A stretch of 64,000 nt of DNA from an uncultured delta proteobacterium (GCA_963696385.1 CAVOKF010000001.1:64001-128000), one strand, 5' to 3'. Shown: positions 7,076 to 61,754, counted from the stretch's first letter. Program-made: numbers and translations. Notes: a model not told the origin generated them from the sequence alone.

Positions 7076-7771
7076 TCAGGGTCGAGGCACGGGCTTTGGC
7101 TTGCGATCCCGCGTCCGCGTCGCGGCAGCGATGTAGACCGCGGCCAAAATGCTGAAAATGTAGGCTTGAACCATGCCGGTGAGCAGGCCGAGCACGGTCA
7201 TCACGATCGGAAAGAAGAATGGAGTGATCGTCAGTAAAATGCCGACAATCATCGCCCCGCTCATCATGTTGCCGAAGAGGCGGACGGCCAGCGCCAGCGT
7301 GCGCGAGGCTTCGCCGATGATGTTGAACGGCAGCATCATGGGGGTCGGCTCGACGTACGACTCGAGGTACCGGCCGAGCCCCTGTTCCTTGATGCCGTAG
7401 AGCGGCACGGCCACGAATACGCACAGGGCGAGTGCGACGGTGGTCGACAGCGAGCCCGTAGGGGGTTCGAAGCCGGGAATGACCGTGCAGAGGCTCGACG
7501 TGGCGACGAAGAGAAACAGCGTTCCCAGAAAGCCCACATACTTCTCGGGGTGGGCAAGGCCGACGTCTTCGATTTGGCTTTGGATGGCGGTGACGACGAT
7601 TTCCAGACCGTTCTGCCAGCGGGCACGCTCGAGGTCCGTGGAGAGTTTGCGCGTGATGAGTCTCAATCCGACGGCCAGGACGGCCATCAGACCCCATGTG
7701 AACGCAATCGTGGCGTTGATTTTGAACAACCCGTATCGCCAGAAGATCCATTCATCGGGGCTGAGGCGCAT
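7076..7771 (-). CDS. atpB: N-ATPase a subunit
   Basis: PPTGSLSTT, PFNIIGEASRTLALAVRLFGNM, QAYIFSILAAVYI. Confidence 0.96.
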   Translation of the reverse strand: MRLSPDEWIFWRYGLFKINATIAFTWGLMAVLAVGLRLITRKLSTDLERARWQNGLEIVVTAIQSQIEDVGLAHPEKYVGFLGTLFLFVATSSLCTVIPGFEPPTGSLSTTVALALCVFVAVPLYGIKEQGLGRYLESYVEPTPMMLPFNIIGEASRTLALAVRLFGNMMSGAMIVGILLTITPFFFPIVMTVLGLLTGMVQAYIFSILAAVYIAAATRTRDRKPKPVPRP

Positions 7772-8075
7772 GGCGGTCCTCCCGTCCCGGGCCGATCCGG
7801 TTTCGTCCCGACGGCTGCGTCAGCGCCGTTACGGCGGGACGCGCCAGAACGAATCCGAACAAGCAGAAAAGTAGCCGTGGCGCGTGCCCGCCGCCAACCC
7901 AGGTAAGGCCCGTCAACGCCACCGCCATTCGCACGACAAAGCTGAAAACCAGCCAAAGCGCCGGCCGCCGGGACGAGGCTGCGCAGAGAACCGTCCACCA
8001 CAGGCCGCCGAAGAACGTTGCACCCAAAAGGCCCCCGGCCACCCACGCGAGCATCCATGTCACCGCGTCACTCAT
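7752..8075 (-). CDS. atpR: N-ATPase AtpR subunit
   Basis: Three TM helices with FFGGLWWTV and intramembrane Arg residues (VVRM, LARP); lies between atpQ and atpB. Confidence 0.85.
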   Translation of the reverse strand: MSDAVTWMLAWVAGGLLGATFFGGLWWTVLCAASSRRPALWLVFSFVVRMAVALTGLTWVGGGHAPRLLFCLFGFVLARPAVTALTQPSGRNRIGPGREDRHAPQPR

Positions 8076-8476
8076 CGGGGTCTCCTCGTTGCTCGCGCCC
8101 GAGGGCCTCTTGCTCCTTGGCCACCCAGCGCCATGCATTCCAACAGCCGAGCGCGAGCCCTGCCATGAGCAGCGCGAGCGTCCAGGAAAACCGGCCGGGG
8201 TGCCTGGCGTCCAGCCACAGCCCGAGAGCCGTTCCGAGCAGGGTCGGAATCGCCACCGACCACCCGATGAGTCCCATCATGCCCAAACCGAACCAGGCGC
8301 CTTCGGAGCGACGCCCCGCTCGGATCTTGCGCGCCGCCTTGGCGCCGACCTGTTCGGCGAACGTCGGAGCGTGCTTCGCGGCTGTCCCGGTCGGCGCGTC
8401 CGTCTTGCGCGCCGGCTTGGCGCCGACCGGTTCGGCGAACGTCGGGGCGTGCTTCGCGGCTGTCCCGGTCGGCTCG

Positions 8477-8484
<8 letters not shown>
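8068..8484 (-). CDS. atpQ: N-ATPase AtpQ (AtpZ/AtpI family) with duplicated N-terminal segment
   Basis: WFGLGMMGLIGWSVAIPTLLG...WLD...SWTLALL..G...GCWNAWRWV. Confidence 0.88.
8326..8473. repeat. Two-copy direct repeat, 78-bp period, in atpQ (PTGTAAKHAPTFAE[PQ]VGAK[PA]ARK)
   Basis: Copies at about 8326-8395 and 8404-8473 differ at about 3 positions. Confidence 0.9.
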
Positions 8485-11858
<3,374 letters not shown>

Positions 11859-11971
11859 CGACGCGGCAAGTTAACCACGATCGAGGCGCGCCGCCTCGAC
11901 CCCGGTCCCCCCGGCTCTTGTGACCGTCCAGGTCGACCGGCACCGCGTCGAACGCCCCGCTTCGCGGGCCG

Positions 11972-12944
11972 TCAAAACGTGTCCTGCCACTCCGCCCCCT
12001 CTTCAGTGGTTGTGCCCCGCTCGGAGGTGTACCACGGCCCGCTTTCGTCGGAAGCCCTCGACGAGAGCGGCGTGCCGTACATCGTCCAGAACGCATCGCG
12101 CACGGCCACCCGCATCGCGCGTGCGTCCCGCCACCGGGCGGCGCGGTCGCGGCGGAGCGCCCGGTCGACGAGGACGACGATCGCTCGAATCGGCTCCCGG
12201 CAGCGCGGTCGACAGAGATCGAGCGGGGATGGCCGCGCTCGCCACGAGCAATTCCGGCACGGTCGTCTGCGGGTGCACGGCTTGACCGGAGAGCAGGGTG
12301 AATGCCGTCGCGCCGAGCGACCACAAATCGCTCTGTCCGTCCACCCAATCCCATCGCCCACGAGCTTGCTCGGGCGACATGAACCCGGGAGTTCCCATCG
12401 CGAACCCAAGGGGAGGCGCGGGAAGCGGCGCCGAGGTCGGCCCGCGCAGACCCGCGATGCCGAAGTCGAGAATTTTGACTTCCCCCTCGGTCGTGAGAAA
12501 TAAGTTCGCTGGTTTGATGTCGCGATGAACGATCCCCGCATCGTGCAGAGCGATGAGGCCCTCGAGCACTTGATCGAGGATGTAGAGGACTCGGTCGGCG
12601 GCAAGCCGGCCGCCCGCGGCGAACGCACACTCGCACAGCGTTGCCCCTTCGAGCAGCTCCATCACGACGCAAACATTGCCCTCGTCGTCGACGGCATCGT
12701 CCAGGACCCGCACCGTATGCGGGTGTTCTTCGCGCAGGAACGGGCACGCAATCTCCGGCGTCATCGACCAGTTTGGGTGCAGGATCTTGATCGCACTGCG
12801 CCTTCCATTCCGGTGGGTGGCGGCGTACACGGCGGCCATCGTGCCGACGTCGATGAGCTCGTCGTACCGCCATGTTCCGTGCAGCGTGCCTCCGACGCGC
12901 GCTGCGGCACGGGATTGATCGTCGGTCGTGAAGCTCTGCAGCAT
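11972..12944 (-). CDS. Hanks-type Ser/Thr protein kinase, single-base insertion at 12188/12189; possibly degenerate
   Basis: AIKILH, HRDIKPANLF, DFGIA, GTPGFMSPEQ, SDLWSLG. Subdomain XI (LVDRAL...RW.DARAM) lies in the other frame (ORF 11972..12628). Confidence 0.85.
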
Positions 12945-45872: not shown

Positions 45873-46184
45873 TCAAACGGGGGCGGCCTTGGCCGGCTGC
45901 CGCGCCGCCTTTTCCATGGCGGTCGCCAGATCGAAATCGAGAGCGCTGATGCCGCCGGCATCGTGCGTCGTCAGATCCACGACGACACGATTGAAGACGT
46001 TGAACCACTCGGGGTGATGGTCCTGCTTCTGCGCGATGAGTGCACACGTGGCCATGAAGCCAAATGCGTCGGAAAAGTCGGCAAACGTGTAATCGCGGTG
46101 GAGCTTGCCGTCACGCACCACCCATCCGGGCAGCCTCTGCAATCTCTCTTTCAACTCGACCTCGGTCAACTTGGGCATTTTCAT
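45873..46184 (-). CDS. phhB: Pterin-4a-carbinolamine dehydratase
   Basis: LPGW, F.DFSDAFGFM, DHHPEWFNVFNRV.V.LTTHDAGGIS.LD. Confidence 0.93.
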   Translation of the reverse strand: MKMPKLTEVELKERLQRLPGWVVRDGKLHRDYTFADFSDAFGFMATCALIAQKQDHHPEWFNVFNRVVVDLTTHDAGGISALDFDLATAMEKAARQPAKAAPV

Positions 46185-52363: not shown

Positions 52364-52589
52364 CGCCGCAAGGCTATCTGCGACCCCCGGAACCGACAAA
52401 CGCGAAGCGGCAAAAGCCCTGAGCCACGAGCTCGCTTGCAATTTGCAAAGTGCCTTGGCAAGGTGCAAAGGATGGCATGCGCCAGGGTGGTTGACCGACG
52501 CCTCTCTCTGCGCGGGAGGCGGGGTAGGTTCACTTTTCTTTCGAGGGGTTGCCGACTCGGCCCCACCCGGACCGGGGAGCCACGATTCC

Positions 52590-52605
52590 GGGAACGCATC
52601 GTGCA
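52590..52605 (+). promoter_or_regulatory. sigma54-like promoter for the multiheme lipoprotein genes
   Basis: GGGAACGCATCGTGCA, 15 nt before ATG 52621. Confidence 0.4.
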
Positions 52606-52620
52606 CGTGGCCGCGGATCC

Positions 52621-53976
52621 ATGAGCCGATCGCCTTTCCTCGCCCTCGTCGCTGGACTTTGGTTTCTCGGCCTGGCGGGCTGCGCAGGCCCGGTCGGTCC
52701 GGAAGGCGCGACTGGAGACGCCGGTCCACCGGGGCCTCAGGGCGCCACCGGCACGGCCGGGCCTGCCGGGCCCGCCGGTCCGGCGGGTCCTGCCGGCTCG
52801 GTGGGTGAAGCCGGAGCCGTTTCGATCTCGGTGTCGTGCTTGTCGCCGTGCCATGGCTTCAATGGGGTCATCACGCAGTACCAGGGAAGCACGCACTACC
52901 AGGTGTACCTGGCGAACGTGGATACGACGACCGCGGCGGAGTGGGTCGCTCCGGGCGACGCGTGCGGCAACTGCCACGCCATCGATGCCCTTCAGCAACG
53001 CGTCGCGGGAAACGTCATGACCGATGGCGACGCCGGCGTCGTCAACCTCGCTGGCGGCGAGCTTCAATACTGGGATACGACCAAGGATCCGGCCGCGCCG
53101 AACTACGCCAACTACGCCGGGACCGCCACGGTGGCGCAAGTTTATTGCACCACCTGCCATAACGTGACACCCGCCAACGATCCGCACGTCACGGGGATCC
53201 CGTGGACGCCGGGGTCCTTCCCGCTCAATGTCGCGCCCGACGGGGGCACCGTATTTCTCGAGAAAAGCCCCTCGGTCGGTGCGGTCACGGGCACGGCGAC
53301 CCCTCGCGACTACGGCCCGAGCGACACGTGCATTTGGTGCCACAAGTCGCGTGTCGACGTGACCAACTACATCGCCGCGGACGCGGGCAACCGGATCACG
53401 AGCGTCTACTGGGGACCGCACGAGGGGCCGATGGCCGACGTCTTCACGGGGCAAGGGGGCTATCAGTATCCGAACGTCACCTATTCCGAGGACTCCCACG
53501 AAGTGGTGCTCGGGTGTGTCGACTGCCACATGCCCAACGTCACGAGCAACGCCAACGTCCCCGACCACTCCTTCAATCCTCAGCTGAGTGTGTGCGCGAG
53601 TTGCCACATGCCGGCGCCGACGAACTTTGACGTGGGGGGTGGCGAGACGGTCATCAAGAGCGCGATGACCGACCTCCAACGGGCTTTGAACAACCAGGGC
53701 TGGCTGACGCGCGCGACCGCTCCGCCCTACACCCCGCTGACCGATCCGGACGGCGGGGCCGGCCAGGTCGGCGACGGGAACTGGGCCGACGACAATCCGC
53801 TGCCGGGCGTGACCCTCACGGCGGCTCAGGCCGGGGCGCTCTACAACTATCTGATCATCTCCCGCGGCGGAGCCTACGGCGTGCACGCTCCGCTCTACGA
53901 AGGGCAGCTCCTCTACGATTCGTACGAGGCCGTGACCGGTGGCGCGCCGCCCACCTACTCGGCCGGCCGCCCGTAG
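52621..53976 (+). CDS. Hexaheme c-type cytochrome lipoprotein with N-terminal collagen-like stalk
   Basis: Lipobox LAGC; 15 Gly-X-Y triplets; CLSPCH, CGNCH, CTTCH, CIWCH, CVDCH, CASCH. Confidence 0.88.
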   Translation: MSRSPFLALVAGLWFLGLAGCAGPVGPEGATGDAGPPGPQGATGTAGPAGPAGPAGPAGSVGEAGAVSISVSCLSPCHGFNGVITQYQGSTHYQVYLANVDTTTAAEWVAPGDACGNCHAIDALQQRVAGNVMTDGDAGVVNLAGGELQYWDTTKDPAAPNYANYAGTATVAQVYCTTCHNVTPANDPHVTGIPWTPGSFPLNVAPDGGTVFLEKSPSVGAVTGTATPRDYGPSDTCIWCHKSRVDVTNYIAADAGNRITSVYWGPHEGPMADVFTGQGGYQYPNVTYSEDSHEVVLGCVDCHMPNVTSNANVPDHSFNPQLSVCASCHMPAPTNFDVGGGETVIKSAMTDLQRALNNQGWLTRATAPPYTPLTDPDGGAGQVGDGNWADDNPLPGVTLTAAQAGALYNYLIISRGGAYGVHAPLYEGQLLYDSYEAVTGGAPPTYSAGRP

Positions 53977-53984
53977 TCGCGGCG

Positions 53985-55529
53985 GTGAACTCGGCGATCG
54001 CTCGAACGATCGGCATCCTCTGCCTTTTGGCGTCGTGCCAAGAGGACCGGGCGACCGAGTCGCAGCCGCCGGGCTTCGACGTCGACGTGGGGGTGCCGAT
54101 CCTGCAGGCGCACTGCGTCTCCTGCCACGGGAATACGAACCCGGCCGCGGGCTGGAGCGCCACGTCGTATTTGGCCGCGATCGGCTGCGTCGCGCCTTCC
54201 GGCGCGCCGGCCACGCTCCCGGCGAGCGGGGCCGCTCCGATTCTCGCCGCGCTCGACACGGCACCGCACGTAGGGCTGCTTTCGGACTCCGATCGCTCGA
54301 CGCTCTTGGGATGGGTGGTCGCGGGCACCCCGGACGTCGTGGACGGGGTGCACGATCCAGGGTTTGCCGATCCGCGGTCGATCGCGTTCCACGGGACGAC
54401 CTTACGCGCTGTGCGCTGGGCCCCGATGCTCGACGCCGACGATCCGAACGCGTGCGGGCGCTGCCACGCGGGAGCGCCCTCGACCCCCGCCGGCGTCACA
54501 TCGCCTGCACCGGGCGCGCCCGCCTGTACGAGCTGCCACGACCAGCCCGGGGGAGCGCTGGCGTGCAGCACCTGCCACGGATCCGGTACGATCGCCTACC
54601 CCCCGCGGGATCCTTGCTTTTTCCCGGGTGACGCGGTCAACGCCGGGGCCCATGCGGCGCACGTCCAGCCCTCGGAGGCTTTGCCGACGGGAGTCGCGTG
54701 CTCGACGTGCCATCCGGTGCCCGGCAATCCGGTCATCGGGGGCTATCACGGCGACGGGACCGTCGAGATCCTCTTTGATCCGACGGTCGTGGCCGGCGAA
54801 GCCAGCTACGACCGCGCGACGCAGACCTGTGCGGTTTATTGCCACGACCAGGGCGGCGCCCGGCCGCGACCGACCTGGAGCGAGACCACGCCGATGGCGT
54901 GCGGCGACTGCCACGGCTCGCCACCGAGCGGTCACTACGTGGGGCCGTGCAGCAATTGCCACGCGGAGGCGAATGCCACGGGCACGGCGCTGACCGGTGG
55001 GCCGCTGCACCTGAACGGCAAGGTCGACCTCGGCAACGGCAGCGGCCTCTGCGGCGCGTGCCACGGCAGCGGCAGTAGCCCGTGGCCGAGCACGGCCGCG
55101 CACCCGGCGCATCAGAATCCGACGATCACGGTGCCGCTCGATTGCACGAATTGCCACGTGGTGCCGAGCACGATCCTGGATCCCGTTCACCTGGATGGCA
55201 CGGTGCATGTCACGCTCTCGGGGCTCGCCATGGCGCGCGGATCGCTGCCAGCATGGGACGGCACCCAGTGCACGAACGTCGCGTGCCATGGGGCCAACCT
55301 GGCCGGCCCTGCGGCCGCCCCGGCCTGGAACGACACGTCGGGGGCGCAGGCCAAGTGCGGGGCATGTCACGGAATTCCACCCTCCGATCACACCCCCGCG
55401 ACGGACTGCAACCGCTCGGATTGCCACGGCTCGGAGGTGTCGATCGATGCCAACGGCACTCCGTCGATTGCCGCGATCGGCTTATCCCGCCACATCGACG
55501 GCATCATCGAGTTCGCCGGCTCCGAGTGA
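53985..55529 (+). CDS. Multiheme cytochrome lipoprotein, CxxxxCH/CxxCH-domain type (~13 heme motifs)
   Basis: Lipobox LASC; 10 CxxCH plus CAVYCH, CTNVACH, CNRSDCH; repeated H..H / H.DG.V / P.W / CG.CHG.PP units. Confidence 0.88.
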   Translation: MNSAIARTIGILCLLASCQEDRATESQPPGFDVDVGVPILQAHCVSCHGNTNPAAGWSATSYLAAIGCVAPSGAPATLPASGAAPILAALDTAPHVGLLSDSDRSTLLGWVVAGTPDVVDGVHDPGFADPRSIAFHGTTLRAVRWAPMLDADDPNACGRCHAGAPSTPAGVTSPAPGAPACTSCHDQPGGALACSTCHGSGTIAYPPRDPCFFPGDAVNAGAHAAHVQPSEALPTGVACSTCHPVPGNPVIGGYHGDGTVEILFDPTVVAGEASYDRATQTCAVYCHDQGGARPRPTWSETTPMACGDCHGSPPSGHYVGPCSNCHAEANATGTALTGGPLHLNGKVDLGNGSGLCGACHGSGSSPWPSTAAHPAHQNPTITVPLDCTNCHVVPSTILDPVHLDGTVHVTLSGLAMARGSLPAWDGTQCTNVACHGANLAGPAAAPAWNDTSGAQAKCGACHGIPPSDHTPATDCNRSDCHGSEVSIDANGTPSIAAIGLSRHIDGIIEFAGSE

Positions 55530-55551
55530 TCGTGCGCTGAGCCCCTCCGGG

Positions 55552-57112
55552 TCACGGGCTCGAAGCCCGGAACACGTGGCAACCGGTGCACACCGATACG
55601 CCGGGCTCGTGGTCGCCCCGGTCGGTGTGGCAACTTGCCGTGCACGTGGCGCGATCGTCGCGTGGCGGCTCGTGGGGCGACACGTGGCAGCTGGCGCACG
55701 CCGCGTGGCCCGGCACGGCATGGAGCCCCGGTAACGTGGCCGGCGCATGGCACGTCGTGCAAGCGGGGGGCGCGGCGATGCCGCCGGGGCCGTGGGGGCG
55801 ATGGCAGTTCCCGCAGCCTCCCGGGATCGCCCCGTGCGGCTCGCGGGTCTTGTCCGCATGGCACGAGGCGCACGGGGGCGTGGGCTGCCCGCCGTGGGGC
55901 TCGTGGCAACCGATGCAGCGCTGGTGGCCCGCGGGCGCGGACTTCTGTTCGACGGCATGGCAGGTGCCGCAAGGCGCCGGCGCCGCAATCGCATGCACGA
56001 CCGATGCGCCGTGGCACGACACGCAGTCGGCATGGCCGGGGTTCGATGCGACGAGCGTGGTCTCGTGGACGTGACAGTCTCGGCACAGGGTCTTTTCGTC
56101 CAGCCCCTCGAAGGCGTGCGGCTTGTGGCACGCCTCGCAGACGATGGCTCCGCTGTGCGCGCCGGTGTCGGTGGAGGCCACCTTCTCGTGACAGCTCGTG
56201 CACGTGGCCGCGACCGCGGTCGGATCGTCCGTGTGGGGCCGATGGCACGTGACACACGCGGCCGCGTTCCCGTGACTCACCTGGACGTCCTGGTGGCATC
56301 GCGCACAAGCGGCCGCGGCCGCGCCGGGAGCGTGCGGATTGTGGCAGTTCACGCAAACGGCGTGGGCCGGGACCTCGCTGGCGACCAGCGTGGTCTTGGG
56401 GCCGTGGCAGCTGACGCACACGCTGGCTTTCGCGACGAAGCTGTGAGGCTCGTGACAATTGAGGCACGCGTCGTGGGCGCTCGGGTGCGGTTCTGACCCC
56501 TGCGCATGGCAGCTCGCGCAGGCGGCCTTCGCCGCGGACGCAGGCTCGTGGGGGCGGTGGCAGTCGAGGCAACCCTTCGAATCCGGCGTGCTCGCCGTGC
56601 TCGGGCGCGCGCTCGCGGTGGCAACTCGTGCAATCCGCCGGGACGATGGAAGGGGTCTCGTGCAGGCGGTGGCACGTCGTGCAGTCGACGGTCGCGTGTT
56701 GCACCACGGCCGGCAGAAGGCCCTCCGGCCTCGCGTGGCAGTCGATGCATGTCGGCTCGGCACGCCCGATCGCGAACGCATGGCAGGTCAGGCAGTCGGT
56801 CGAGCGGGACGGACTGCCGTGGTGGGCGACGCCGGTTTCCCTCGCATGGCATTTCGTGCAGACCGCCGTGCCGGGGTTTTTGAACCCGTCGCGCTCGAAG
56901 TCGTGGCAGTCGTGGCACTCGGCCTTCGCCGCGCCCACGTGCGTCCGGTGACCGGGAGTCGTGCGCGCCTGGGCCCACGACGCGGGCACGAAGTCGGGCG
57001 TCACGCTCTTCGCCCTGTGCCGCCCGATCAGGACCCGCACCGCGAGGCATGCGGCCACGATCACGACCGCGCCGGCGAGGCCAAAGAGGACTCGTCGGAC
57101 CCCCCGGGTCAT
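55552..57112 (-). CDS. ~25-heme c-type cytochrome, single-base insertion at 56580/56581
   Basis: 6 CxxCH in ORF 55388..57139, then 18 CxxCH + CTASCH in ORF 55552..56781. One-base removal gives 519 aa. ATGA-coupled to the upstream gene. Confidence 0.88.
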
Positions 57113-58146
57113 GGACCGACCCCGTGACACAGACGACACGGCACGTCGCGGTGAACGTCCTTGTGGCTCGTGAAGCCGGGACCGTGAGGGTTGCCGCCCG
57201 GTCCGCCGACGCGATGGCAGCCGACGCAGAGGGTCTCGCCGGCGCCTCCGTGGCAGCCCGCGCAGGACACCGGATCGATGCGGGCCTGCACCCCGTGCTC
57301 GCCGTTCGCCCAGCCCGGCGGGTGGGGGCTAGGCGCCGCGGAGCCGGCGACGTTCTCACGAGTGTGGCAGTCGACGCACGAGCTTTCCGTGTGGCACGTC
57401 GTGCAGACCCCCGGATCGGCCCTCGCTTCCTCGGGGTGACGAGCCATGAATCCGGCGCGATGAATGCCGGACAGGCTCACCTCGCCCAAGGCGAGCTTCC
57501 AGGGCAGGGCAGGGACCGTGCCCTCACCATGGCACGACGCGCACTGCCGCTCGGTGTGGCAGCTCGCGCAGAGGTCGCGCGCGCTGGCCGCTCGTACACC
57601 ATGCTCGCGGACGAAGTCAGCGTCGTGAACGAGGTGATCGTCGGGCGGTACTCCCTCGTCGCGCAAATCGACGTGGCAGCCGTTGCAGTCGCGCATCGCC
57701 CACTGGTCGCGGTGCTCGTGGCATCCGAAGCAGGTGGCCATCTTCGGCAAGACGGTCTCCGGACGCGCTTCGGCCACGTCGGAATGGCACCGAACGCAAT
57801 CGCCGTGGACCGCACCCATGTGGCGTGGGTGATCGAATCGAAGCTGCGCGCGTGCGAGCTCCGCCACTTGGCGTACGTACGGTTCGCCGTGACACAGCAT
57901 GCACGGTCGATCGTCGTGGGGCTTCTCGTGGCATCGCCGGCAGACGGCGTCGGACGGAAAATGGATCGGCCCCGTGTCTCCAGCGAGCGCGACCCCTACA
58001 TGGCATTCGACGCAGTTGATGCCCTTGAGCACGTGGGCGCGGTGCTCGAACGGGTGCGACGGCAGATCATGACGAAGGCCGAGCACGCTGGCGCACGCCG
58101 CGAGCGCGATCGACACGACCATCCCGAGCGTGAAACGCATCCTCAT
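57109..58146 (-). CDS. 13-heme c-type cytochrome lipoprotein (c3/c7-like N-terminal repeats)
   Basis: Lipobox LAAC; F.H..H motifs; 13 CxxCH. Confidence 0.9.
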   Translation of the reverse strand: MRMRFTLGMVVSIALAACASVLGLRHDLPSHPFEHRAHVLKGINCVECHVGVALAGDTGPIHFPSDAVCRRCHEKPHDDRPCMLCHGEPYVRQVAELARAQLRFDHPRHMGAVHGDCVRCHSDVAEARPETVLPKMATCFGCHEHRDQWAMRDCNGCHVDLRDEGVPPDDHLVHDADFVREHGVRAASARDLCASCHTERQCASCHGEGTVPALPWKLALGEVSLSGIHRAGFMARHPEEARADPGVCTTCHTESSCVDCHTRENVAGSAAPSPHPPGWANGEHGVQARIDPVSCAGCHGGAGETLCVGCHRVGGPGGNPHGPGFTSHKDVHRDVPCRLCHGVGP

Positions 58147-59402
58147 CGGGTTCCCGAGGAGGGGCCGGGTGGCGCCGCGGTTTCGGGCCCGCCCAGCGCG
58201 TACGAGAGACGCACCAGGGCATCGGCCTCGTAGCGGAGCTGGGGCGTCGCAGAGGCTTCCAGAGCGCCCGCGACCTGCCAGCCGTTAGGGGACCGCCACG
58301 ACAGCGCCGACAGGCCCCACGGCCACGCGACGCCGCGTCCGTCGGGGTGGTCGGCCGCGACAATCTCGATCTCCGACGAGTAGCAAAAGCCCTTGCCCAA
58401 GGGCACGGCACCGATGGCGCGCACCCCCGTCCACCGCGCTCCGGGCAGATCGACGCGGCGCAGCTCGATTCCGAGGTTGCCGTTGCCCCGGTCGTCGAGG
58501 CGCAGCGTCGCGCGCACCCACCCGTTGCCGCCGAGATCGCCCGCGACGTCCTGACCGGCGCCGCTCGCGAGCAGGTCGAGCCGTGGGGCCGCTCGCCACC
58601 GAACGGTCGCCCCAATCGTCTGCGACGGCAGGTCGCCGAGCACGGAGAACAGCGACGTCGCGGGCAGCAGCCTGCCGGGCGACAGCTGCGACCCGAATAG
58701 CTCGAAGCGCCAATCGTTCCATCGTGCGGCGGCCGACGCGCGAGCCTCCGCGATCCCGGGGTTCTCGAGGTCGTACGCGCCGAACGCTGCGACGTCGAGC
58801 CAACGAGCCGGAGCCGCCGCAAGGTCGGCCCCCACCTCTTCACTCGAGATCTCCCCGTCCTCGCGCCGCTGCACGTAGGAGACGCCCAGTGTCACGGTGT
58901 CGGCGACCCTTTGGGCGACCCGACCCCCGGCGATCCAGTCGTAGCTGCGCGCCCCGAAGCGCGGGACCACCGGAAGCCCGCCGAAGGTCTCCACCGTGGA
59001 TCCCCACGGGGCACGTCCGATCACATGCACTCCGTCGATTTGCACCGGGTGCACCGCACCTGTGGCGATCACGAAGCGTCCGGCGAGGGCTTCGACATAC
59101 CCGTGCGGCTCGCGGAGCCGGACGGTCAGCACCAGGACATCGCCGGTGAAATGCGGCGAACGCGCACCGGCCCAGACCAGCGCTTCGGCGCTGATCCATG
59201 GGCGCATCGCGTCCTGCCCCTGAAGGACGACAAGTCCCGCCGGGGATGACGTCCCCTGCGTCTCGGCGAGAGCGTCGGCCCGAAGCCGCAGGGGGTCCGC
59301 CCCCGCCCCCGACCCGAGTCCCATGGCACCGGCGACGGTCGTCGCCGCACACGCCACAAAGCGTCGCCGCGGGGGACGACTGGCCGTTGTCTTGCAAGAC
59401 AT
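58143..59402 (-). CDS. Putative outer-membrane beta-barrel (porin of a porin-cytochrome complex)
   Basis: Signal peptide (AGA-DP); amphipathic strands (AGRF...IDGV, LGVSY, RLSY); first gene of the multiheme operon. Confidence 0.7.
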   Translation of the reverse strand: MSCKTTASRPPRRRFVACAATTVAGAMGLGSGAGADPLRLRADALAETQGTSSPAGLVVLQGQDAMRPWISAEALVWAGARSPHFTGDVLVLTVRLREPHGYVEALAGRFVIATGAVHPVQIDGVHVIGRAPWGSTVETFGGLPVVPRFGARSYDWIAGGRVAQRVADTVTLGVSYVQRREDGEISSEEVGADLAAAPARWLDVAAFGAYDLENPGIAEARASAAARWNDWRFELFGSQLSPGRLLPATSLFSVLGDLPSQTIGATVRWRAAPRLDLLASGAGQDVAGDLGGNGWVRATLRLDDRGNGNLGIELRRVDLPGARWTGVRAIGAVPLGKGFCYSSEIEIVAADHPDGRGVAWPWGLSALSWRSPNGWQVAGALEASATPQLRYEADALVRLSYALGGPETAAPPGPSSGTR

Positions 59403-59453
59403 GGTCGGCGTGGGCCCCGTGCAAGTCCCAGGCGCGCGTCGCGAGGCCATCGG

Positions 59454-60107
59454 GTGACCCTGCTGGCGTCGTCGCCCTTGGCGGTGGTCGAGTGCGCGAG
59501 CGCGGCGTTGTCGGCGACCATCCTGGTCGGCTACCTCGTCTTGCGTCCGCCACTGATGCGCGCCACCAAGCTGTGGCTGCTTCTCGGGCTCGGTGTGTTC
59601 CCCATCGGCGCGGCTTTTGCGGGCAACGTGCAGGGCTTCGAGGCGACCAAAGATCGCGTGTTTTGCGGGTCATGCCACGTCATGGCGCTGCACCGTGCCG
59701 ATTCCGACGACCGCGCAAGCGGATCGCTCGCATCGCGGCACGCTCGCAATGCCATGTTCGGTAACGAAAACTGTTACGTGTGCCATGCCGACTACGGGAT
59801 GTTTGGCACGATCCTGACCAAGGCCGGCGGCCTGAGACACGTATGGTTGTACTTGACCGAATACCGACAGACGCCTGTCGAAGAGGCCAAAAAGACGATC
59901 CATCTGCGCGAGCCCTCGAAGATGAACGGAAACTGCATGCAGTGCCATTCGACCGACGACACGCTTTGGCTCAAAGTGCCCGACCATAGGGCGTCGCTCG
60001 ACGACACCCGGGCCGGGCGTTTGGGCTGCGCGAGCGAAGGCTGCCATGGGCTCGCCCACCCGTTCTTTCAGGCTCCCGGGGCGGCCGACAAGGCGGGAAA
60101 GCCTTGA
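59454..60107 (+). CDS. NapC/NirT-family membrane-anchored tetraheme cytochrome
   Basis: Two N-terminal TM segments; T...FCGSCH.M, CYVCH, K..GLRH, CMQCH, CASEGCH..AH. Confidence 0.85.
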   Translation: MTLLASSPLAVVECASAALSATILVGYLVLRPPLMRATKLWLLLGLGVFPIGAAFAGNVQGFEATKDRVFCGSCHVMALHRADSDDRASGSLASRHARNAMFGNENCYVCHADYGMFGTILTKAGGLRHVWLYLTEYRQTPVEEAKKTIHLREPSKMNGNCMQCHSTDDTLWLKVPDHRASLDDTRAGRLGCASEGCHGLAHPFFQAPGAADKAGKP

Positions 60108-60343
60108 GCGCACGACCTGTCGACGTACGGTGGTTAATCGTTTCGTGCGTGTGCGCGCTCGCCGCGCTGGCGCTCATGACGTGGCAGGTCTTCAACCCGA
60201 CGGTCTGGCCCGTCATCGTCGCCATGTCGCTCGGGCAGGTGCTCGGCACCGCGTCTTTCGCCGCGTTCGGGTACGTCGTCTTCGCCGACTTCCGGGCCCA
60301 ACGTCGAGCCGACAGGGTATCGAGGTCGATCCCGCCGACGTGA
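60104..60343 (+). CDS. Small two-TM membrane protein
   Basis: TTG start overlaps the NapC stop; two hydrophobic segments, GQ..GT motif. Confidence 0.65.
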   Translation: MSARPVDVRWLIVSCVCALAALALMTWQVFNPTVWPVIVAMSLGQVLGTASFAAFGYVVFADFRAQRRADRVSRSIPPT

Positions 60344-60614
60344 TCCTCGTTCAACTCGAGCTCGCTGGCTCGATCCTTCGGGCCCTGGCCGCGCTTTGGG
60401 CAAAATGCGAAAGGCACTGTGGCGAATCGCGAATGTTCCTTGCTGATTCGGATCGGCTGCTTTGCGCATCCGGGCAGGCGAGCGCCCTTGTGCTTGAAAC
60501 CGGCCCCGACCGTTCCATCCGCGTCGCGCTCGCAGCGGCCGTTCAACCTCCGGTGCGCACGCGCGTTTTCGGAGTCGAATCGGGGCGCGCTGCCTCCGCA
60601 CGCCTTGCGCAGAC

Positions 60615-60630
60615 CGGCACGGTTTGCGCA
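60615..60630 (+). promoter_or_regulatory. sigma54-like promoter
   Basis: CGGCACGGTTTGCGCA, 15 nt before ATG 60646. Confidence 0.5.
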
Positions 60631-60645
60631 TGATAAGCCCCGTCC

Positions 60646-61491
60646 ATGTCGATCCGGATCGCATCGCTGGCGGTGATTCCGGCGGTCCTGCTCGCGGGCG
60701 GCCTGGCGCTCTACGGCGTGGAGCGCGAACCAGACGCGACCGCTGCCGCTCACGGGATCTCCGCGCCGCCGGCCGCCGAGGGTGAGGCGCTGCCCTTCGG
60801 AAGCGACGAGCCCCCCCTTCCGCCCGACCACCCGCCCATTGGATCGGCGAACTCGCCGTTCGAGCAAGGCGAAGCCCTGCCACCCAACCACCCGCCCATT
60901 GGATCGGCGAACTCGCCGTTCGAACAAGGCGAAGCGCTGCCACCCAACCACCCGCCCATCGGATCGGCGAACTCGCCGTTCGAACAAGGCGAAGCGCTGC
61001 CACCCAACCACCCGCCCATCGGATCGGCGAACTCGCAGCTCGGGTCGCTGGCCCGTGCTTCCGACGATCCCTCTGCGATCGTCTGGAAAATGCCAAAAGG
61101 CTGGCAGGAGACGCCGAGCCCGAATGCGATGCGACTAGCGACGTACCGCGTTGCCGGTTCGGTGGAGGTGATCGTGTTGCGCGCCGGGGGCGCGACGCAG
61201 GCCAACATCGACCGATGGGTCGCGCAGTTCGACGACGTCGGCCACCAGGGACGCGTGGACAAGACGGTGCACGGCCTGCACGCCGTCACGGTCGACGTCT
61301 CCGGCACCTACGTCGGCGGCGGCATGACGATGGGGGCACCGGCCGATCCGAAGCGCGACTGGGCGATGGTGGGCGCCATCGTCGAGAGCCAGAGCCCTTC
61401 GTATTTCTTCAAGATGACGGGACCGGCAGCGGCGGTTCGCGCGGCGCGTCCCGCGTTCGACCGCATGATCGACAGCATCGCACCCCTTTGA
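60646..61491 (+). CDS. Exported/anchored protein with LPPxHPPI repeats and a conserved C-terminal globular domain
   Basis: N-terminal hydrophobic segment; W..P.GW, MRLATY, GG...NIDRW..QF, FFKMTGP. Confidence 0.75.
   Translation: MSIRIASLAVIPAVLLAGGLALYGVEREPDATAAAHGISAPPAAEGEALPFGSDEPPLPPDHPPIGSANSPFEQGEALPPNHPPIGSANSPFEQGEALPPNHPPIGSANSPFEQGEALPPNHPPIGSANSQLGSLARASDDPSAIVWKMPKGWQETPSPNAMRLATYRVAGSVEVIVLRAGGATQANIDRWVAQFDDVGHQGRVDKTVHGLHAVTVDVSGTYVGGGMTMGAPADPKRDWAMVGAIVESQSPSYFFKMTGPAAAVRAARPAFDRMIDSIAPL
60815..61036. repeat. 60-bp in-frame tandem repeat, ~4 copies (LPPNHPPIGSANSPFEQGEA)
   Basis: ggatcggcgaactcgc at 60841, 60901, 60961 and 61021. Confidence 0.95.
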
Positions 61492-61754
61492 CCGACGCGC
61501 CGCGGAGGCGCGATCGCGACCCCATCCGCAACCGGACGGGCGAACGTGGCACTGCCGCACGGAGTCGAAGCCGCGGTGTGCGTCCTTCGAAACGCAACAC
61601 CGGCCCGGCCAATGGCAAGGATGCCACCGGGTCCGTTGCGTCGGCGGCGCGTTCAGCCCCATCAAACTCCTATTCTTTGGGGACGACCCCATGTGTGCGG
61701 CCAAAGTGTTGAATGGCATAGGACGTGTTTTTCGGATTCAGTCGAATGATCGGA

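What the first reader, a model, noticed from the sequence alone, without database searches (positions are those of the whole stretch)
52621..60343. Candidate trans-envelope electron conduit (porin + ~61 hemes + NapC/NirT) back-to-back with an aerobic caa3/bc operon
Seen: three tightly packed transcription units encode a beta-barrel-like protein and cytochromes with 6, 13, ~25, 13 and 4 heme motifs (55 CxxCH + 6 CX3-4CH). Porin, 13-heme and 25-heme genes are coupled by ATGA overlaps. The NapC/NirT gene is divergent from the porin across only ~50 bp. Established: porin + periplasmic multiheme + outer lipoprotein cytochrome + NapC/CymA-type quinol oxidoreductase is the parts list of Mtr/Mto/Pcc extracellular electron transfer. 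Inference: heme counts do not fit MtrAB/C (10+10), so this looks like a distinct architecture in a likely Polyangiaceae-type myxobacterium. It could serve metal/humic respiration. Because it abuts complex III-IV, it could instead serve electron uptake coupled to O2 reduction. Direction cannot be read from sequence.
Basis: partly seen in the sequence, partly recalled or inferred. Interest (0 to 1): 0.9.

Follow-up and report, generated by a model that had tools for sequence, protein, structure and literature searches.

The report
Myxobacterial porin-cytochrome electron conduit, 61 hemes
A peat-soil myxobacterium carries a conserved, unannotated gene cluster that most likely builds a heme wire from the inner membrane through an outer-membrane barrel to the cell surface, a new variant of the known porin-cytochrome electron conduits.

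Summary
Window 52621-60107 encodes five c-type cytochromes carrying 55 CxxCH and 6 CX3-4CH motifs, plus an unannotated outer-membrane protein. The two ATGA overlaps and the neighbouring caa3/bc operon are also there.

- **Frameshift:** the 25-heme gene is frameshifted in this assembly by one extra base (56580/56581). Contigs of 4 of 4 public runs lack that base, so the gene is probably intact.
- **Barrel:** the "porin" models as a 22-strand barrel without a plug (pLDDT 85.9). It resembles usher, TonB-receptor and MtrB barrels.
- **Complex model:** the model puts the C-terminal eight heme motifs of the adjacent 13-heme lipoprotein inside the lumen (score 0.76, best control 0.00).
- **Conservation:** the core NapC | barrel - 13-heme - 25-heme is syntenic across Myxococcota, including the cultured Labilithrix luteola.
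- **Oxidase neighbour:** caa3 adjacency is not conserved (0 of 80 loci).
- **New features:** the 25-heme protein has an N-terminal membrane anchor. The 6-heme OcwA/NrfA-like lipoprotein sits on a collagen-like stalk.

Best reading: a Pcc-type trans-envelope conduit. It probably carries quinol electrons outward to humic matter or Fe(III). The direction is inferred, not shown.

Verdict: a new variant of a known kind. Interest 0.68.

The parts
52621..53976 (+). 6-heme lipoprotein cytochrome ('hex6'). It has a lipobox Cys21, then about 14 collagen-like G-X-Y triplets, then a domain with 1 CxxxCH + 5 CxxCH. Its C-terminal half is distantly like OcwA/NrfA.
   Evidence: Pfam Collagen PF01391 scores 33.8 bits against a cut-off of 27.2. 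The lipobox Cys and 11 Gly positions in register are invariant in 41 of 41 homologs. G-X-Y runs of 11-17 triplets occur in 39 of 41. Profile against PDB: BclA E 1e-6, NrfA 3ubr E 3.2e-5. VIA: OcwA 6i5b Z 7.8, rmsd 4.6, 139 aligned, on a poor model of pLDDT 54.9.
53985..55529 (+). 13-heme-motif lipoprotein cytochrome ('h13a') with 10 CxxCH + 3 CX3-4CH and a CxxxxCH/CxxCH domain.
   Evidence: NCBIfam TIGR01904 scores 90.7 bits against a cut-off of 27. Lipobox-type N-termini appear in the relatives inspected. Present in 62 of 80 related loci.
55552..56580 (-). 25-heme cytochrome ('h25'), the part after the frameshift (18 CxxCH + 1 CxxxCH).
   Evidence: The intact homolog in L009 (8408-9964, minus strand) has 519 aa and 24 + 1 motifs spaced 15-22 residues apart, with 54 His.
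56581..56581 (-). Extra base (one T of TT on the coding strand) that breaks the h25 frame in this assembly.
   Evidence: Alignment to L009. One base is left out at 56580 in the contigs of 4 of 4 runs laid.
56582..57112 (-). h25, N-terminal part: a hydrophobic membrane anchor, the conserved VPxxW motif and 6 CxxCH.
   Evidence: A hydrophobic 18-residue window with KD above 1.6 occurs in 61 of 64 homologs, and a lipobox-like motif in 11 of 64.
57109..58146 (-). 13-heme lipoprotein cytochrome ('h13b'), the predicted insert of the barrel. Its start overlaps the barrel's stop, and its stop overlaps the h25 start (ATGA in both cases).
   Evidence: 13 CxxCH. The lipobox Cys18 is invariant in 33 of 33. 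Overlaps read. Complex score 0.76 against a best control of 0.00.
58143..59402 (-). Outer-membrane beta-barrel of 22 strands with no plug and short loops. No Pfam or NCBIfam family.
   Evidence: AF2 model: pLDDT 85.9, pTM 0.76, 22 strands. VIA: FimD Z 19.3, FyuA 18.3, BtuB 17.7, MtrB 6r2q_B Z 16.5 (rmsd 4.6, 329 aligned). Zero Pfam families at E up to 10.
59403..59453 (.). 51-bp divergent intergenic region between the barrel and NapC.
   Evidence: Starts inferred from conservation of the N-termini. Sequence. No sigma-70-like site was found.
59454..60107 (+). NapC/NirT-family tetraheme cytochrome (3 CxxCH + 1 CxxxCH) with two conserved hydrophobic N-terminal segments. It is the only NapC/NirT gene in the genome.
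   Evidence: Pfam PF03264 scores 42.9 bits against a cut-off of 24.1. Single genomic match. N-terminal conservation. Present in 66 of 80 related loci.
60646..61491 (+). Co-conserved protein of unknown function ('d1'): a membrane anchor, four 20-residue repeats holding PP(N/D)HPPIG, and an unassigned C-terminal domain of about 150 aa.
   Evidence: sequence. The 60-nt tandem repeat is family D1. Found in 24 of 80 related loci and in 11 of 14 loci of close relatives. No Pfam match.

Best explanation
The cluster encodes a porin-cytochrome (Pcc-type) trans-envelope electron conduit.

Proposed path:
1. The NapC/NirT tetraheme protein in the inner membrane exchanges electrons with the quinone pool.
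2. It passes them to the 25-heme protein. That protein is tethered to the inner membrane by its N-terminal anchor. Its roughly 18-residue-per-heme, all bis-His chain is long enough in principle to bridge the periplasm.
3. The chain hands electrons to the 13-heme lipoprotein. The C-terminal eight heme motifs of that lipoprotein sit inside the 22-strand outer-membrane barrel.
4. Two further lipoprotein cytochromes act as outer or terminal modules. One is a 13-motif CxxxxCH type. The other is a 6-heme OcwA/NrfA-like domain on a collagen-like, presumably trimeric, stalk.

Most likely use: outward transfer of respiratory electrons to extracellular humic or particulate organic matter, or to Fe(III), when O2 is lacking in peat or soil.

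Shown by computation: the gene content, the motifs, the barrel fold, the predicted barrel-cytochrome fit and the conservation.

Inferred: the locations of the lipoproteins, the periplasm-spanning role of the 25-heme protein, trimerisation of the stalk, and the direction of flow.
For: Barrel and insert:
- The barrel model has 22 strands with pLDDT 85.9. It resembles large empty or plugged barrels, including MtrB (Z 16.5), and has no plug or other domain.
- The complex runs scored 0.76, 0.24 and 0.77. The best of 3 controls scored 0.00. The mark was reached by 116 of 157 solved complexes and 2 of 215 mismatched pairs. Run agreement was at least 46% of contacts, and partner pLDDT at least 62.
- Confident contacts fall on every one of the 22 strands with an i/i+2 pattern. 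So h13b residues 146-339 lie in the lumen.
- The least-error contacts involve the barrel's invariant G108/R109 region.

Operon structure: ATGA coupling joins barrel, h13b and h25.

Synteny:
- Barrel, h13b and h25 are contiguous in 14 of 14 loci of relatives, and NapC is also present in 13 of 14.
- In 80 GTDB loci found with h13b, the barrel is in 73, h25 in 75 and NapC in 66.
- The barrel and h13b are adjacent in 4 of 5 distant Myxococcota families.

The 25-heme protein: 25 motifs spaced 15-22 residues apart, 54 His and 1 Met. A hydrophobic anchor occurs in 61 of 64 homologs.

NapC: it passes Pfam's cut-off and is the genome's only NapC/NirT gene.

The stalked cytochrome: the best structural neighbours of hex6 are the surface metal reductases OcwA (Z 7.8) and 6qvm (Z 6.9).

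Habitat: the sequence is held by runs of 15 studies labelled peat, bog, soil or permafrost.

Genome context: the genome has few other multiheme genes. Of 11 frames with at least 4 CxxCH, 5 are here.

Published range: Pcc barrels have 18-22 strands, periplasmic partners have 5-14 hemes, and atypical motifs are typical of the outer cytochromes (passages of PMC4245776).
Against: - No experiment and no expression data were seen. All runs found were DNA.
- One of the three complex runs scored only 0.24. The solved MtrAB complex may have taught the model this arrangement.
- Hemes were not modelled.
- h13b carries an invariant lipobox, unlike the soluble MtrA or OmaB.
- No cytochrome is shown to be surface-exposed.
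- The hex6 model is poor (pLDDT 54.9), so its fold matches are weak.
- hex6 is present in only 42 of 80 loci and h13a in 62 of 80.
- The genome looks aerobic. It has caa3, and no class III ribonucleotide reductase or bd oxidase was found at 96% completeness. This leaves the direction open.
- Homology to the Geobacter or Anaeromyxobacter Pcc proteins was not tested.
Confidence: 0.7

Rival explanations
1. The structure is the same conduit but it runs inward. It would take electrons from Fe(II) or reduced humics outside the cell and deliver them to the aerobic chain (caa3/bc), as MtoAB-CymA is thought to do in iron oxidisers.
For: The caa3/bc operon is back-to-back with the cluster in this genome. 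The genome shows no class III RNR, no bd oxidase and only one molybdopterin-enzyme match, so it looks like an aerobe. From my own recall, not from any call, the cultured carrier Labilithrix luteola (L058) is described as aerobic.
Against: The oxidase adjacency is not conserved. coxI and coxII lie within 8 kb in 0 of 80 loci. Homology to the 94% relative stops at 52388. The conserved partner is a NapC/NirT quinol dehydrogenase (66 of 80 loci), which ties the conduit to the quinone pool rather than to a cytochrome c oxidase. If the quinone is menaquinone (recalled for myxobacteria, not tested), uptake from Fe(II) into it would be uphill.
Confidence: 0.2
2. It is not a trans-outer-membrane conduit. 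The cytochromes would form a periplasmic NrfH/NrfA-like reductase chain for a soluble substrate (nitrite, sulfite, hydroxylamine, tetrathionate), and the barrel would be an ordinary porin for that substrate.
For: NapC resembles NrfH (TIGR03153, E 3.7e-8). The hex6 profile matches NrfA (E 3.2e-5). Some homologs are named nitrite reductase c552 by their source. MccA (Z 6.4) and NrfA (Z 4.7) are among the fold hits.
Against: All these scores lie below the curated cut-offs: PF02335 17.4 against 24.1 and TIGR03153 33.5 against 134.2. hex6 has no CxxCK motif and is absent from 38 of 80 loci, while the barrel-h13b-h25 core persists. A plugless 22-strand barrel with short loops is far wider than substrate porins. 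The model fills it with h13b.
Confidence: 0.07
3. The cluster is decaying. The frameshift in the 25-heme gene would make it a pseudogene and the system non-functional in this organism.
For: The window's frame is broken at 56580/56581.
Against: Contigs of 4 of 4 public runs (4 studies; two of them at least 99% identical over the stretch and possibly the source) lack the extra base. The 94% relative is intact. Both halves keep all their heme motifs.
Confidence: 0.03

Closest known systems
Pcc porin-cytochrome complexes (Geobacter OmbB-OmaB-OmcB and relatives, including the two-gene Anaeromyxobacter clusters; Shi et al. 2014, PMC4245776, passages read)
   Same: The gene order is barrel, inserted multiheme, then larger multiheme. 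The barrel has 22 strands (published range 18-22). The partner has 13 hemes (range 5-14; 12 in Anaeromyxobacter). The lipoprotein cytochromes carry atypical CX3-4CH motifs.
   Different: No sequence relationship was tested. The inserted cytochrome is itself a lipoprotein. A NapC/NirT gene is part of the cluster. The third gene is a 25-heme protein with an inner-membrane anchor rather than an outer-membrane lipoprotein. An extra 6-heme lipoprotein has a collagen-like stalk. The carriers are Polyangia-type, apparently aerobic myxobacteria.
MtrCAB / MtoAB-CymA / PioAB (Shewanella, Sideroxydans, Rhodopseudomonas)
   Same: The logic is the same: a NapC/NirT-type quinol dehydrogenase plus a cytochrome sheathed by a barrel. 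The barrel model aligns with MtrB (6r2q_B, Z 16.5, rmsd 4.6, 329 residues).
   Different: There is no MtrB_PioB Pfam match in the protein or the genome. The barrel has 22 strands and about 385 mature residues, against the 649-residue MtrB chain. There are 13 hemes where MtrA has 10. DmsE/MtrA and OmcA/MtrC NCBIfam scores lie far below their cut-offs.
OcwA of Thermincola potens and the S-layer undecaheme of Carboxydothermus ferrireducens (6i5b, 6qvm), surface terminal reductases of the NrfA superfamily
   Same: They are the best structural neighbours of the C-terminal half of hex6 (Z 7.8 and 6.9). NrfA-family sequence signal is also present.
   Different: hex6 has 6 heme motifs, not 9 or 11. 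It comes from a diderm, is a lipoprotein and has a collagen-like stalk. The similarity is weak and the model is poor.
Peat EET clusters EET1-4 of Acidobacteriota and Verrucomicrobiota (bioRxiv 10.64898/2026.05.27.727921; abstract, section 9 and a term search read)
   Same: The habitat is the same (peat). The finding is of the same kind: syntenic, sequence-divergent porin-multiheme clusters modelled as Mtr-like conduits.
   Different: That paper's main text never mentions Myxococcota, Polyangi-, NapC or collagen (0 occurrences). Its cytochromes carry 8-13 hemes. Its supplements could not be seen.
Bacterial collagen-like surface proteins (BclA, Scl1/Scl2)
   Same: The N-terminal G-X-Y run matches BclA (E 1e-6) and the SclB/SclA models. 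Like them, it precedes a globular C-terminal domain.
   Different: Here the globular domain is a multiheme cytochrome and the anchor is a lipobox, not LPXTG or an exosporium. No paper in the library holds both 'collagen-like' and 'multiheme cytochrome'.

Membership tests
Pcc porin-cytochrome class (as delimited in PMC4245776) | [quoted passage not shown] | tested here: met
   22 strands in the AF2 model, pLDDT 85.9. Barrel fold matches.
Pcc porin-cytochrome class (as delimited in PMC4245776) | Adjacent multiheme c-type cytochrome (5-14 hemes) predicted to insert in the barrel | tested here: met
   13 CxxCH, ATGA-coupled to the barrel. Complex score 0.76 against a best control of 0.00, with contacts on all 22 strands. 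This is a prediction only.
Pcc porin-cytochrome class (as delimited in PMC4245776) | Sequence similarity (BLAST E < 0.01) to OmaB/OmbB/OmcB or their listed homologs | not tested
MtrB/PioB barrels | Match to Pfam PF11854 MtrB_PioB | tested here: not met
   Zero Pfam families for the barrel at E up to 10. No match in the whole genome.
MtrA/DmsE decaheme and OmcA/MtrC decaheme families | NCBIfam TIGR03508 / TIGR03507 above the curated cut-off | tested here: not met
   TIGR03508 scores 23.5 bits against 192.2 for h25. TIGR03507 scores 18.1 against 209.3 for hex6.
NapC/NirT family | Pfam PF03264 above cut-off, four heme motifs, N-terminal membrane anchor | tested here: met
   42.9 bits against 24.1. 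3 CxxCH + 1 CxxxCH. Conserved hydrophobic N-terminal segments. The equivalogs NrfH, TorC and napC_nirT all score below cut-off.
NrfA (cytochrome c552 nitrite reductase), for hex6 | PF02335 above cut-off and a CxxCK active-site heme motif | tested here: not met
   17.4 bits against 24.1. The motifs are CLSPCH plus five CxxCH, with no CxxCK.
Collagen triple-helix repeat | Uninterrupted G-X-Y repeats; Pfam PF01391 above cut-off | tested here: met
   33.8 bits against 27.2. Runs of 11-17 triplets in 39 of 41 homologs. Triple-helix formation itself is not testable here.
TonB-dependent transporters | 22-strand barrel plus N-terminal plug domain and TonB box | tested here: not met
   The barrel part aligns (FyuA Z 18.3, BtuB Z 17.7). 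The protein has only about 35 residues before strand 1 and no Pfam plug or receptor match.
CxxxxCH/CxxCH domain cytochromes (TIGR01904), for h13a | NCBIfam domain model above cut-off | tested here: met
   90.7 bits against 27, two stretches.

The most novel reading that the evidence does not exclude
The system would be a fully hard-wired, shuttle-free conduit. A single inner-membrane-anchored 25-heme polypeptide bridges the whole periplasm from NapC to the barrel insert. At the outer face, a trimeric 6-heme reductase is held about 12 nm off the cell on a collagen triple helix. That reductase would act as a tethered, swinging terminal reductase that reaches particulate organic matter or mineral surfaces. 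In an otherwise aerobic, polymer-degrading myxobacterium this could serve anoxic survival. It could also drive extracellular quinone/Fe redox cycling (Fenton-type chemistry) under air.
Probability: 0.2. Interest if true: 0.85.

Novelty: new variant of a known kind. Interest (0 to 1): 0.68.

Why it matters
Who reduces peat humic and particulate organic matter, and with what machinery, is an open question for carbon and methane budgets.

- **Spread:** this unannotated family is widespread. Barrel relatives were found in 100 of 401 sampled Myxococcota genomes. The stretch is held by peat, bog, soil and permafrost runs of 15 studies.
- **A cultured carrier:** the strain Labilithrix luteola DSM 27648 (L058) has all seven genes. 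That would make the system genetically testable.
- **Two untested design solutions:** a membrane-anchored 25-heme chain may show how electrons cross the periplasm. A collagen-stalked cytochrome may show how they reach solids.

Tried and rejected
- **Barrel profile against solved structures:** only chance-level hits (MutH, E 0.6).
- **The search for related loci with barrel alignments A1 and A4:** both failed because no conserved 7-10-column stretch exists. The h13b alignment A2 was used instead.
- **The listing of cluster members on 10 distant barrel relatives:** no taxon names came back.
- **Earlier findings of the scan:** none by place, by sequence or by words.
- **Promoter and terminator scan:** nothing above the shuffles.
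- **Terminal repeats:** a search for repeats that would mark the 52388-61499 block as a mobile element found only heme-motif repeats and the tandem repeat in d1.
- **LPMO idea:** the thought that the conduit feeds lytic polysaccharide monooxygenases got no support from an AA10 search. No PF03067 match turned up in the genome.
- **Atlas search of the d1 C-domain:** only unnamed clusters came back, commonest in Verrucomicrobiota and Acidobacteriota, plus weak DcrB/PsbP-like leads.
- **Literature searches with no result:** Polyangiaceae + multiheme + extracellular electron transfer (0 papers); Labilithrix + multiheme (0); collagen-like + multiheme cytochrome (0).
- **Other literature search:** porin-cytochrome + Myxococcota listed 7 papers. 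Only the search listing was seen, and none is on this cluster by title or abstract start.
- **RNA evidence:** not sought.

Full report
**What is there**

The region is about 67-72% G+C, so open frames alone are unreliable. Genes were called from heme motifs, Pfam and conservation.

On the plus strand:
- 52621-53976 encodes a 451-aa protein with 5 CxxCH and one CxxxCH.
- 53985-55529 encodes a 514-aa protein with 10 CxxCH and 3 CX3-4CH.

On the minus strand, three genes follow one another with ATGA overlaps:
- 59402-58143, with no family match.
- 58146-57109, with 13 CxxCH.
- A gene starting at 57112 that carries 24 CxxCH + 1 CxxxCH.

Divergent from the first of these across 51 bp, 59454-60107 encodes a NapC/NirT protein with 3 CxxCH + 1 CxxxCH.

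Below 52400 on the minus strand lie CoxII-cyt c, CoxI-III, CtaG, Rieske and a cytochrome b-c fusion.

**The frameshift**

The 25-heme gene is split between two frames. Against the 94%-identical relative, the window has one extra T (GGATTCG against GGATCG) at 56580/56581.

The stretch is held by 20 run rows of 15 studies labelled peat, bog, soil or permafrost metagenomes. I laid four runs from four studies. In all four the contig leaves out exactly one base at 56580.

Two of these contigs are at least 99% identical and may be the window's own source. The other two are 95-99% relatives. I therefore read the break as a consensus error of the assembly, not a pseudogene. The intact homolog (L009 8408-9964, minus strand) has 519 aa.

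**The barrel**

The 419-aa product has no Pfam or NCBIfam match, even at E 10, and no sequence relative among solved structures.

It has more than 1,315 relatives in the large protein collection. All are 'hypothetical', and the named ones are Polyangiaceae MAGs. It matches 441 clusters at 50% identity with E up to 0.001.

An AlphaFold2 model built on 52 sequences has pLDDT 85.9 and pTM 0.76. It shows 22 strands between residues 38 and 401, short loops on both sides and nothing that could be a plug.

- Foldseek returns outer-membrane barrels.
- VIA-align ranks the 24-strand ushers FimD and PapC first (Z 19.3 and 18.8). The 22-strand TonB-dependent transporters follow (FyuA 18.3, BtuB 17.7).
- MtrB of the solved Mtr complex is at rank 13 (Z 16.5, rmsd 4.6, 329 residues aligned).

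A 22-strand barrel with no plug has to be filled by something.

**The insert**

- The three runs scored 0.76, 0.24 and 0.77, and the best of three controls scored 0.00.
- The mark was reached by 116 of 157 solved complexes and 2 of 215 mismatched pairs.
- The runs agree in at least 46% of contacts, and partner pLDDT is at least 62.

Laid on the strand list, the confident contact residues fall on every one of the 22 strands, mostly at i/i+2. That is the signature of lumen-facing side chains.

On the cytochrome, the contacts are residues 21-25 and 146-339. So the last eight heme motifs are inside the barrel and the first five are outside.

The lowest-error contacts join heme motif 8 of the cytochrome to barrel residues 90-91, 109-111 and 119-121. 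These adjoin the barrel's invariant G108, R109, G115, D123.

Caveats: hemes were not modelled, one run was weak, and the solved MtrAB complex may have taught the model this arrangement.

**Anchors**

- **h13b:** the lipobox Cys is invariant (33 of 33). h13b is therefore a lipoprotein, unlike MtrA.
- **h13a:** lipobox-type N-termini appear in the relatives inspected.
- **hex6:** the lipobox Cys and the first eleven Gly of a G-X-Y run that starts two residues later are invariant in 41 of 41. The run is 11-17 triplets long in 39 of 41 and passes Pfam's Collagen cut-off.
- **h25:** the N-terminus is a hydrophobic segment of about 20 residues, in most homologs without a Cys. It is followed by basic residues and a conserved VPxxW. 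A strongly hydrophobic window is present in 61 of 64, and a lipobox-like motif in 11 of 64.
- **h25 body:** the 25 motifs are spaced 15-22 residues apart. There are 54 His and a single Met, which fits bis-His ligation throughout. I infer an inner-membrane tether with the heme chain in the periplasm.
- **NapC:** it has two conserved hydrophobic segments upstream of its first heme motif.

**The outer modules**

h13a passes the TIGR01904 CxxxxCH/CxxCH domain model (90.7 bits).

The hex6 fold model is poor (pLDDT 54.9; only the last 110 or so residues are confident). Even so, its C-terminal half finds four multiheme proteins first:
- OcwA (Z 7.8, rmsd 4.6, 139 aligned).
- The Carboxydothermus S-layer undecaheme (Z 6.9).
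- MccA (Z 6.4).
- NrfA (Z 4.7).

Its profile also finds NrfA by sequence (E 3.2e-5) and BclA over the collagen part (E 1e-6). It is not an NrfA. PF02335 scores below cut-off and there is no CxxCK.

**Conservation**

- **Close relatives, barrel alone:** among 41 genomes of relatives, 23 have the barrel, counting the window's own. Within the genus, 19 of 24 others have it.
- **Close relatives, synteny:** in 14 loci fetched from them, barrel-h13b-h25 are contiguous in 14 and NapC is also present in 13.
- **Species-representative genomes:** a scan with the h13b profile confirmed 147 stretches and kept the best 80. All bear myxobacterial or unclassified MAG titles, except one labelled Coxiellaceae. 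The chromosome of Labilithrix luteola DSM 27648 is among them.
- **Tally over those 80:** at tblastn E up to 1e-10 and at least 40% query coverage, with several loci cut by contig ends, the counts are barrel 73, h25 75 (N part), NapC 66, h13a 62, hex6 42, d1 24, coxI and coxII 0, cytochrome b 3.
- **Phylum sample:** across 401 sampled Myxococcota genomes the barrel profile matches in 100, in 57 of 254 genera.
- **Distant families:** in 4 of 5 distant families checked, the h13b relative lies next to the barrel.

The window and its 94% relative share DNA only from 52388 to 61499. So the block of seven genes sits in different surroundings even within the genus. I found no terminal repeats.

**Direction**

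Nothing in the sequence fixes the direction.

For outward flow:
- The conserved partner is a quinol dehydrogenase of the NapC/NirT family, the only one in the genome.
- The habitat is rich in humic acceptors.
- The genome has few other alternatives to O2. There is one molybdopterin-enzyme match and few other multiheme genes.

For inward flow:
- The organism looks aerobic. It has caa3, and no class III ribonucleotide reductase or bd oxidase was found at 96% completeness.
- Here the oxidase operon is adjacent. That adjacency, however, is not conserved.

I put outward flow at roughly three to one over inward.

**Comparison with what is known**

By sequence this is not an Mtr system.

It matches the published description of the Pcc class. 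Pcc barrels have 18-22 strands, the inserted cytochrome has 5-14 hemes, and atypical motifs are typical of the outer cytochromes. Anaeromyxobacter, also a myxobacterium, carries a two-gene barrel + 12-heme form (passages of PMC4245776). I could not test homology to those proteins.

A 2026 preprint reports four comparable clusters in peat Acidobacteriota and Verrucomicrobiota. Its main text does not mention Myxococcota, NapC or collagen (abstract, section 9 and a term search read; supplements closed).

My searches for Polyangiaceae or Labilithrix with multiheme terms, and for collagen-like with multiheme cytochrome, found no paper.

**Verdict**

This is a real, conserved, unannotated porin-cytochrome conduit, and a new variant of a known kind. 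Three features appear undescribed:
- A membrane-anchored 25-heme chain.
- A lipidated barrel insert.
- A collagen-stalked OcwA/NrfA-like cytochrome.

A cultured carrier is available in which to test all of it.

Noticed in passing
window 60646-61491 (+): A co-conserved gene of unknown function. It has a membrane anchor, four tandem 20-residue repeats (each holding PP(N/D)HPPIG, from a 60-nt DNA repeat at 60817-61042) and an unassigned C-terminal domain of about 150 aa. The nearest Atlas clusters of that domain are unnamed proteins, commonest in Verrucomicrobiota and Acidobacteriota. The His-Pro repeats might bind a metal or heme.
   Followed up: partly
window 52388 and 61499; L009 5239-14262: DNA homology to the 94%-identical relative covers only the seven-gene block and stops on both sides. 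The block therefore sits in different genomic surroundings within one genus. No flanking repeats were found.
   Followed up: partly
L062, L069, L071 (about 11900-12500, minus strand): In three distant loci that lack hex6, a cytochrome b homolog (36-37% identical to the window's bc-complex cytochrome b) lies just downstream of the 25-heme gene. It may be an alternative quinone-coupling module.
   Followed up: no
L085-L102 (loci with Kofleriaceae and other titles): In 8 of the 18 loci (L086, L087, L089, L094, L095, L098, L101, L102) NapC lies on the same strand as the 13-heme gene. In 7 of these it is directly upstream of the barrel. An h13a-like gene (29-34% identity) sits further upstream. This suggests a single five-gene operon instead of the divergent layout.
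   Followed up: no
L018, L019 (G034) and L057: Here the 25-heme protein starts with a lipobox followed by Asp (AAC-D) instead of a Cys-free hydrophobic anchor. It may be an alternative way of holding it at the inner membrane. The +2 rule is recalled from enterobacteria and was not tested.
   Followed up: no
L022 (G012:C48) 7641-9054: In the second copy of the cluster in one relative, the 25-heme gene matches in several separate pieces. This could mean frameshifts in that assembly too.
   Followed up: no
window 45873-46170 (-): A pterin-4a-carbinolamine dehydratase domain (PF01329, E 5.7e-30) lies directly downstream of the cytochrome b-c gene, at the end of the bc/caa3 operon.
   Followed up: no
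window 58143-59402 (-), N-terminus: The barrel's signal region has a long basic n-region (conserved MxCKTTA...RRR) before the hydrophobic core. This is unusual for an outer-membrane protein and faintly Tat-like.
   Followed up: no
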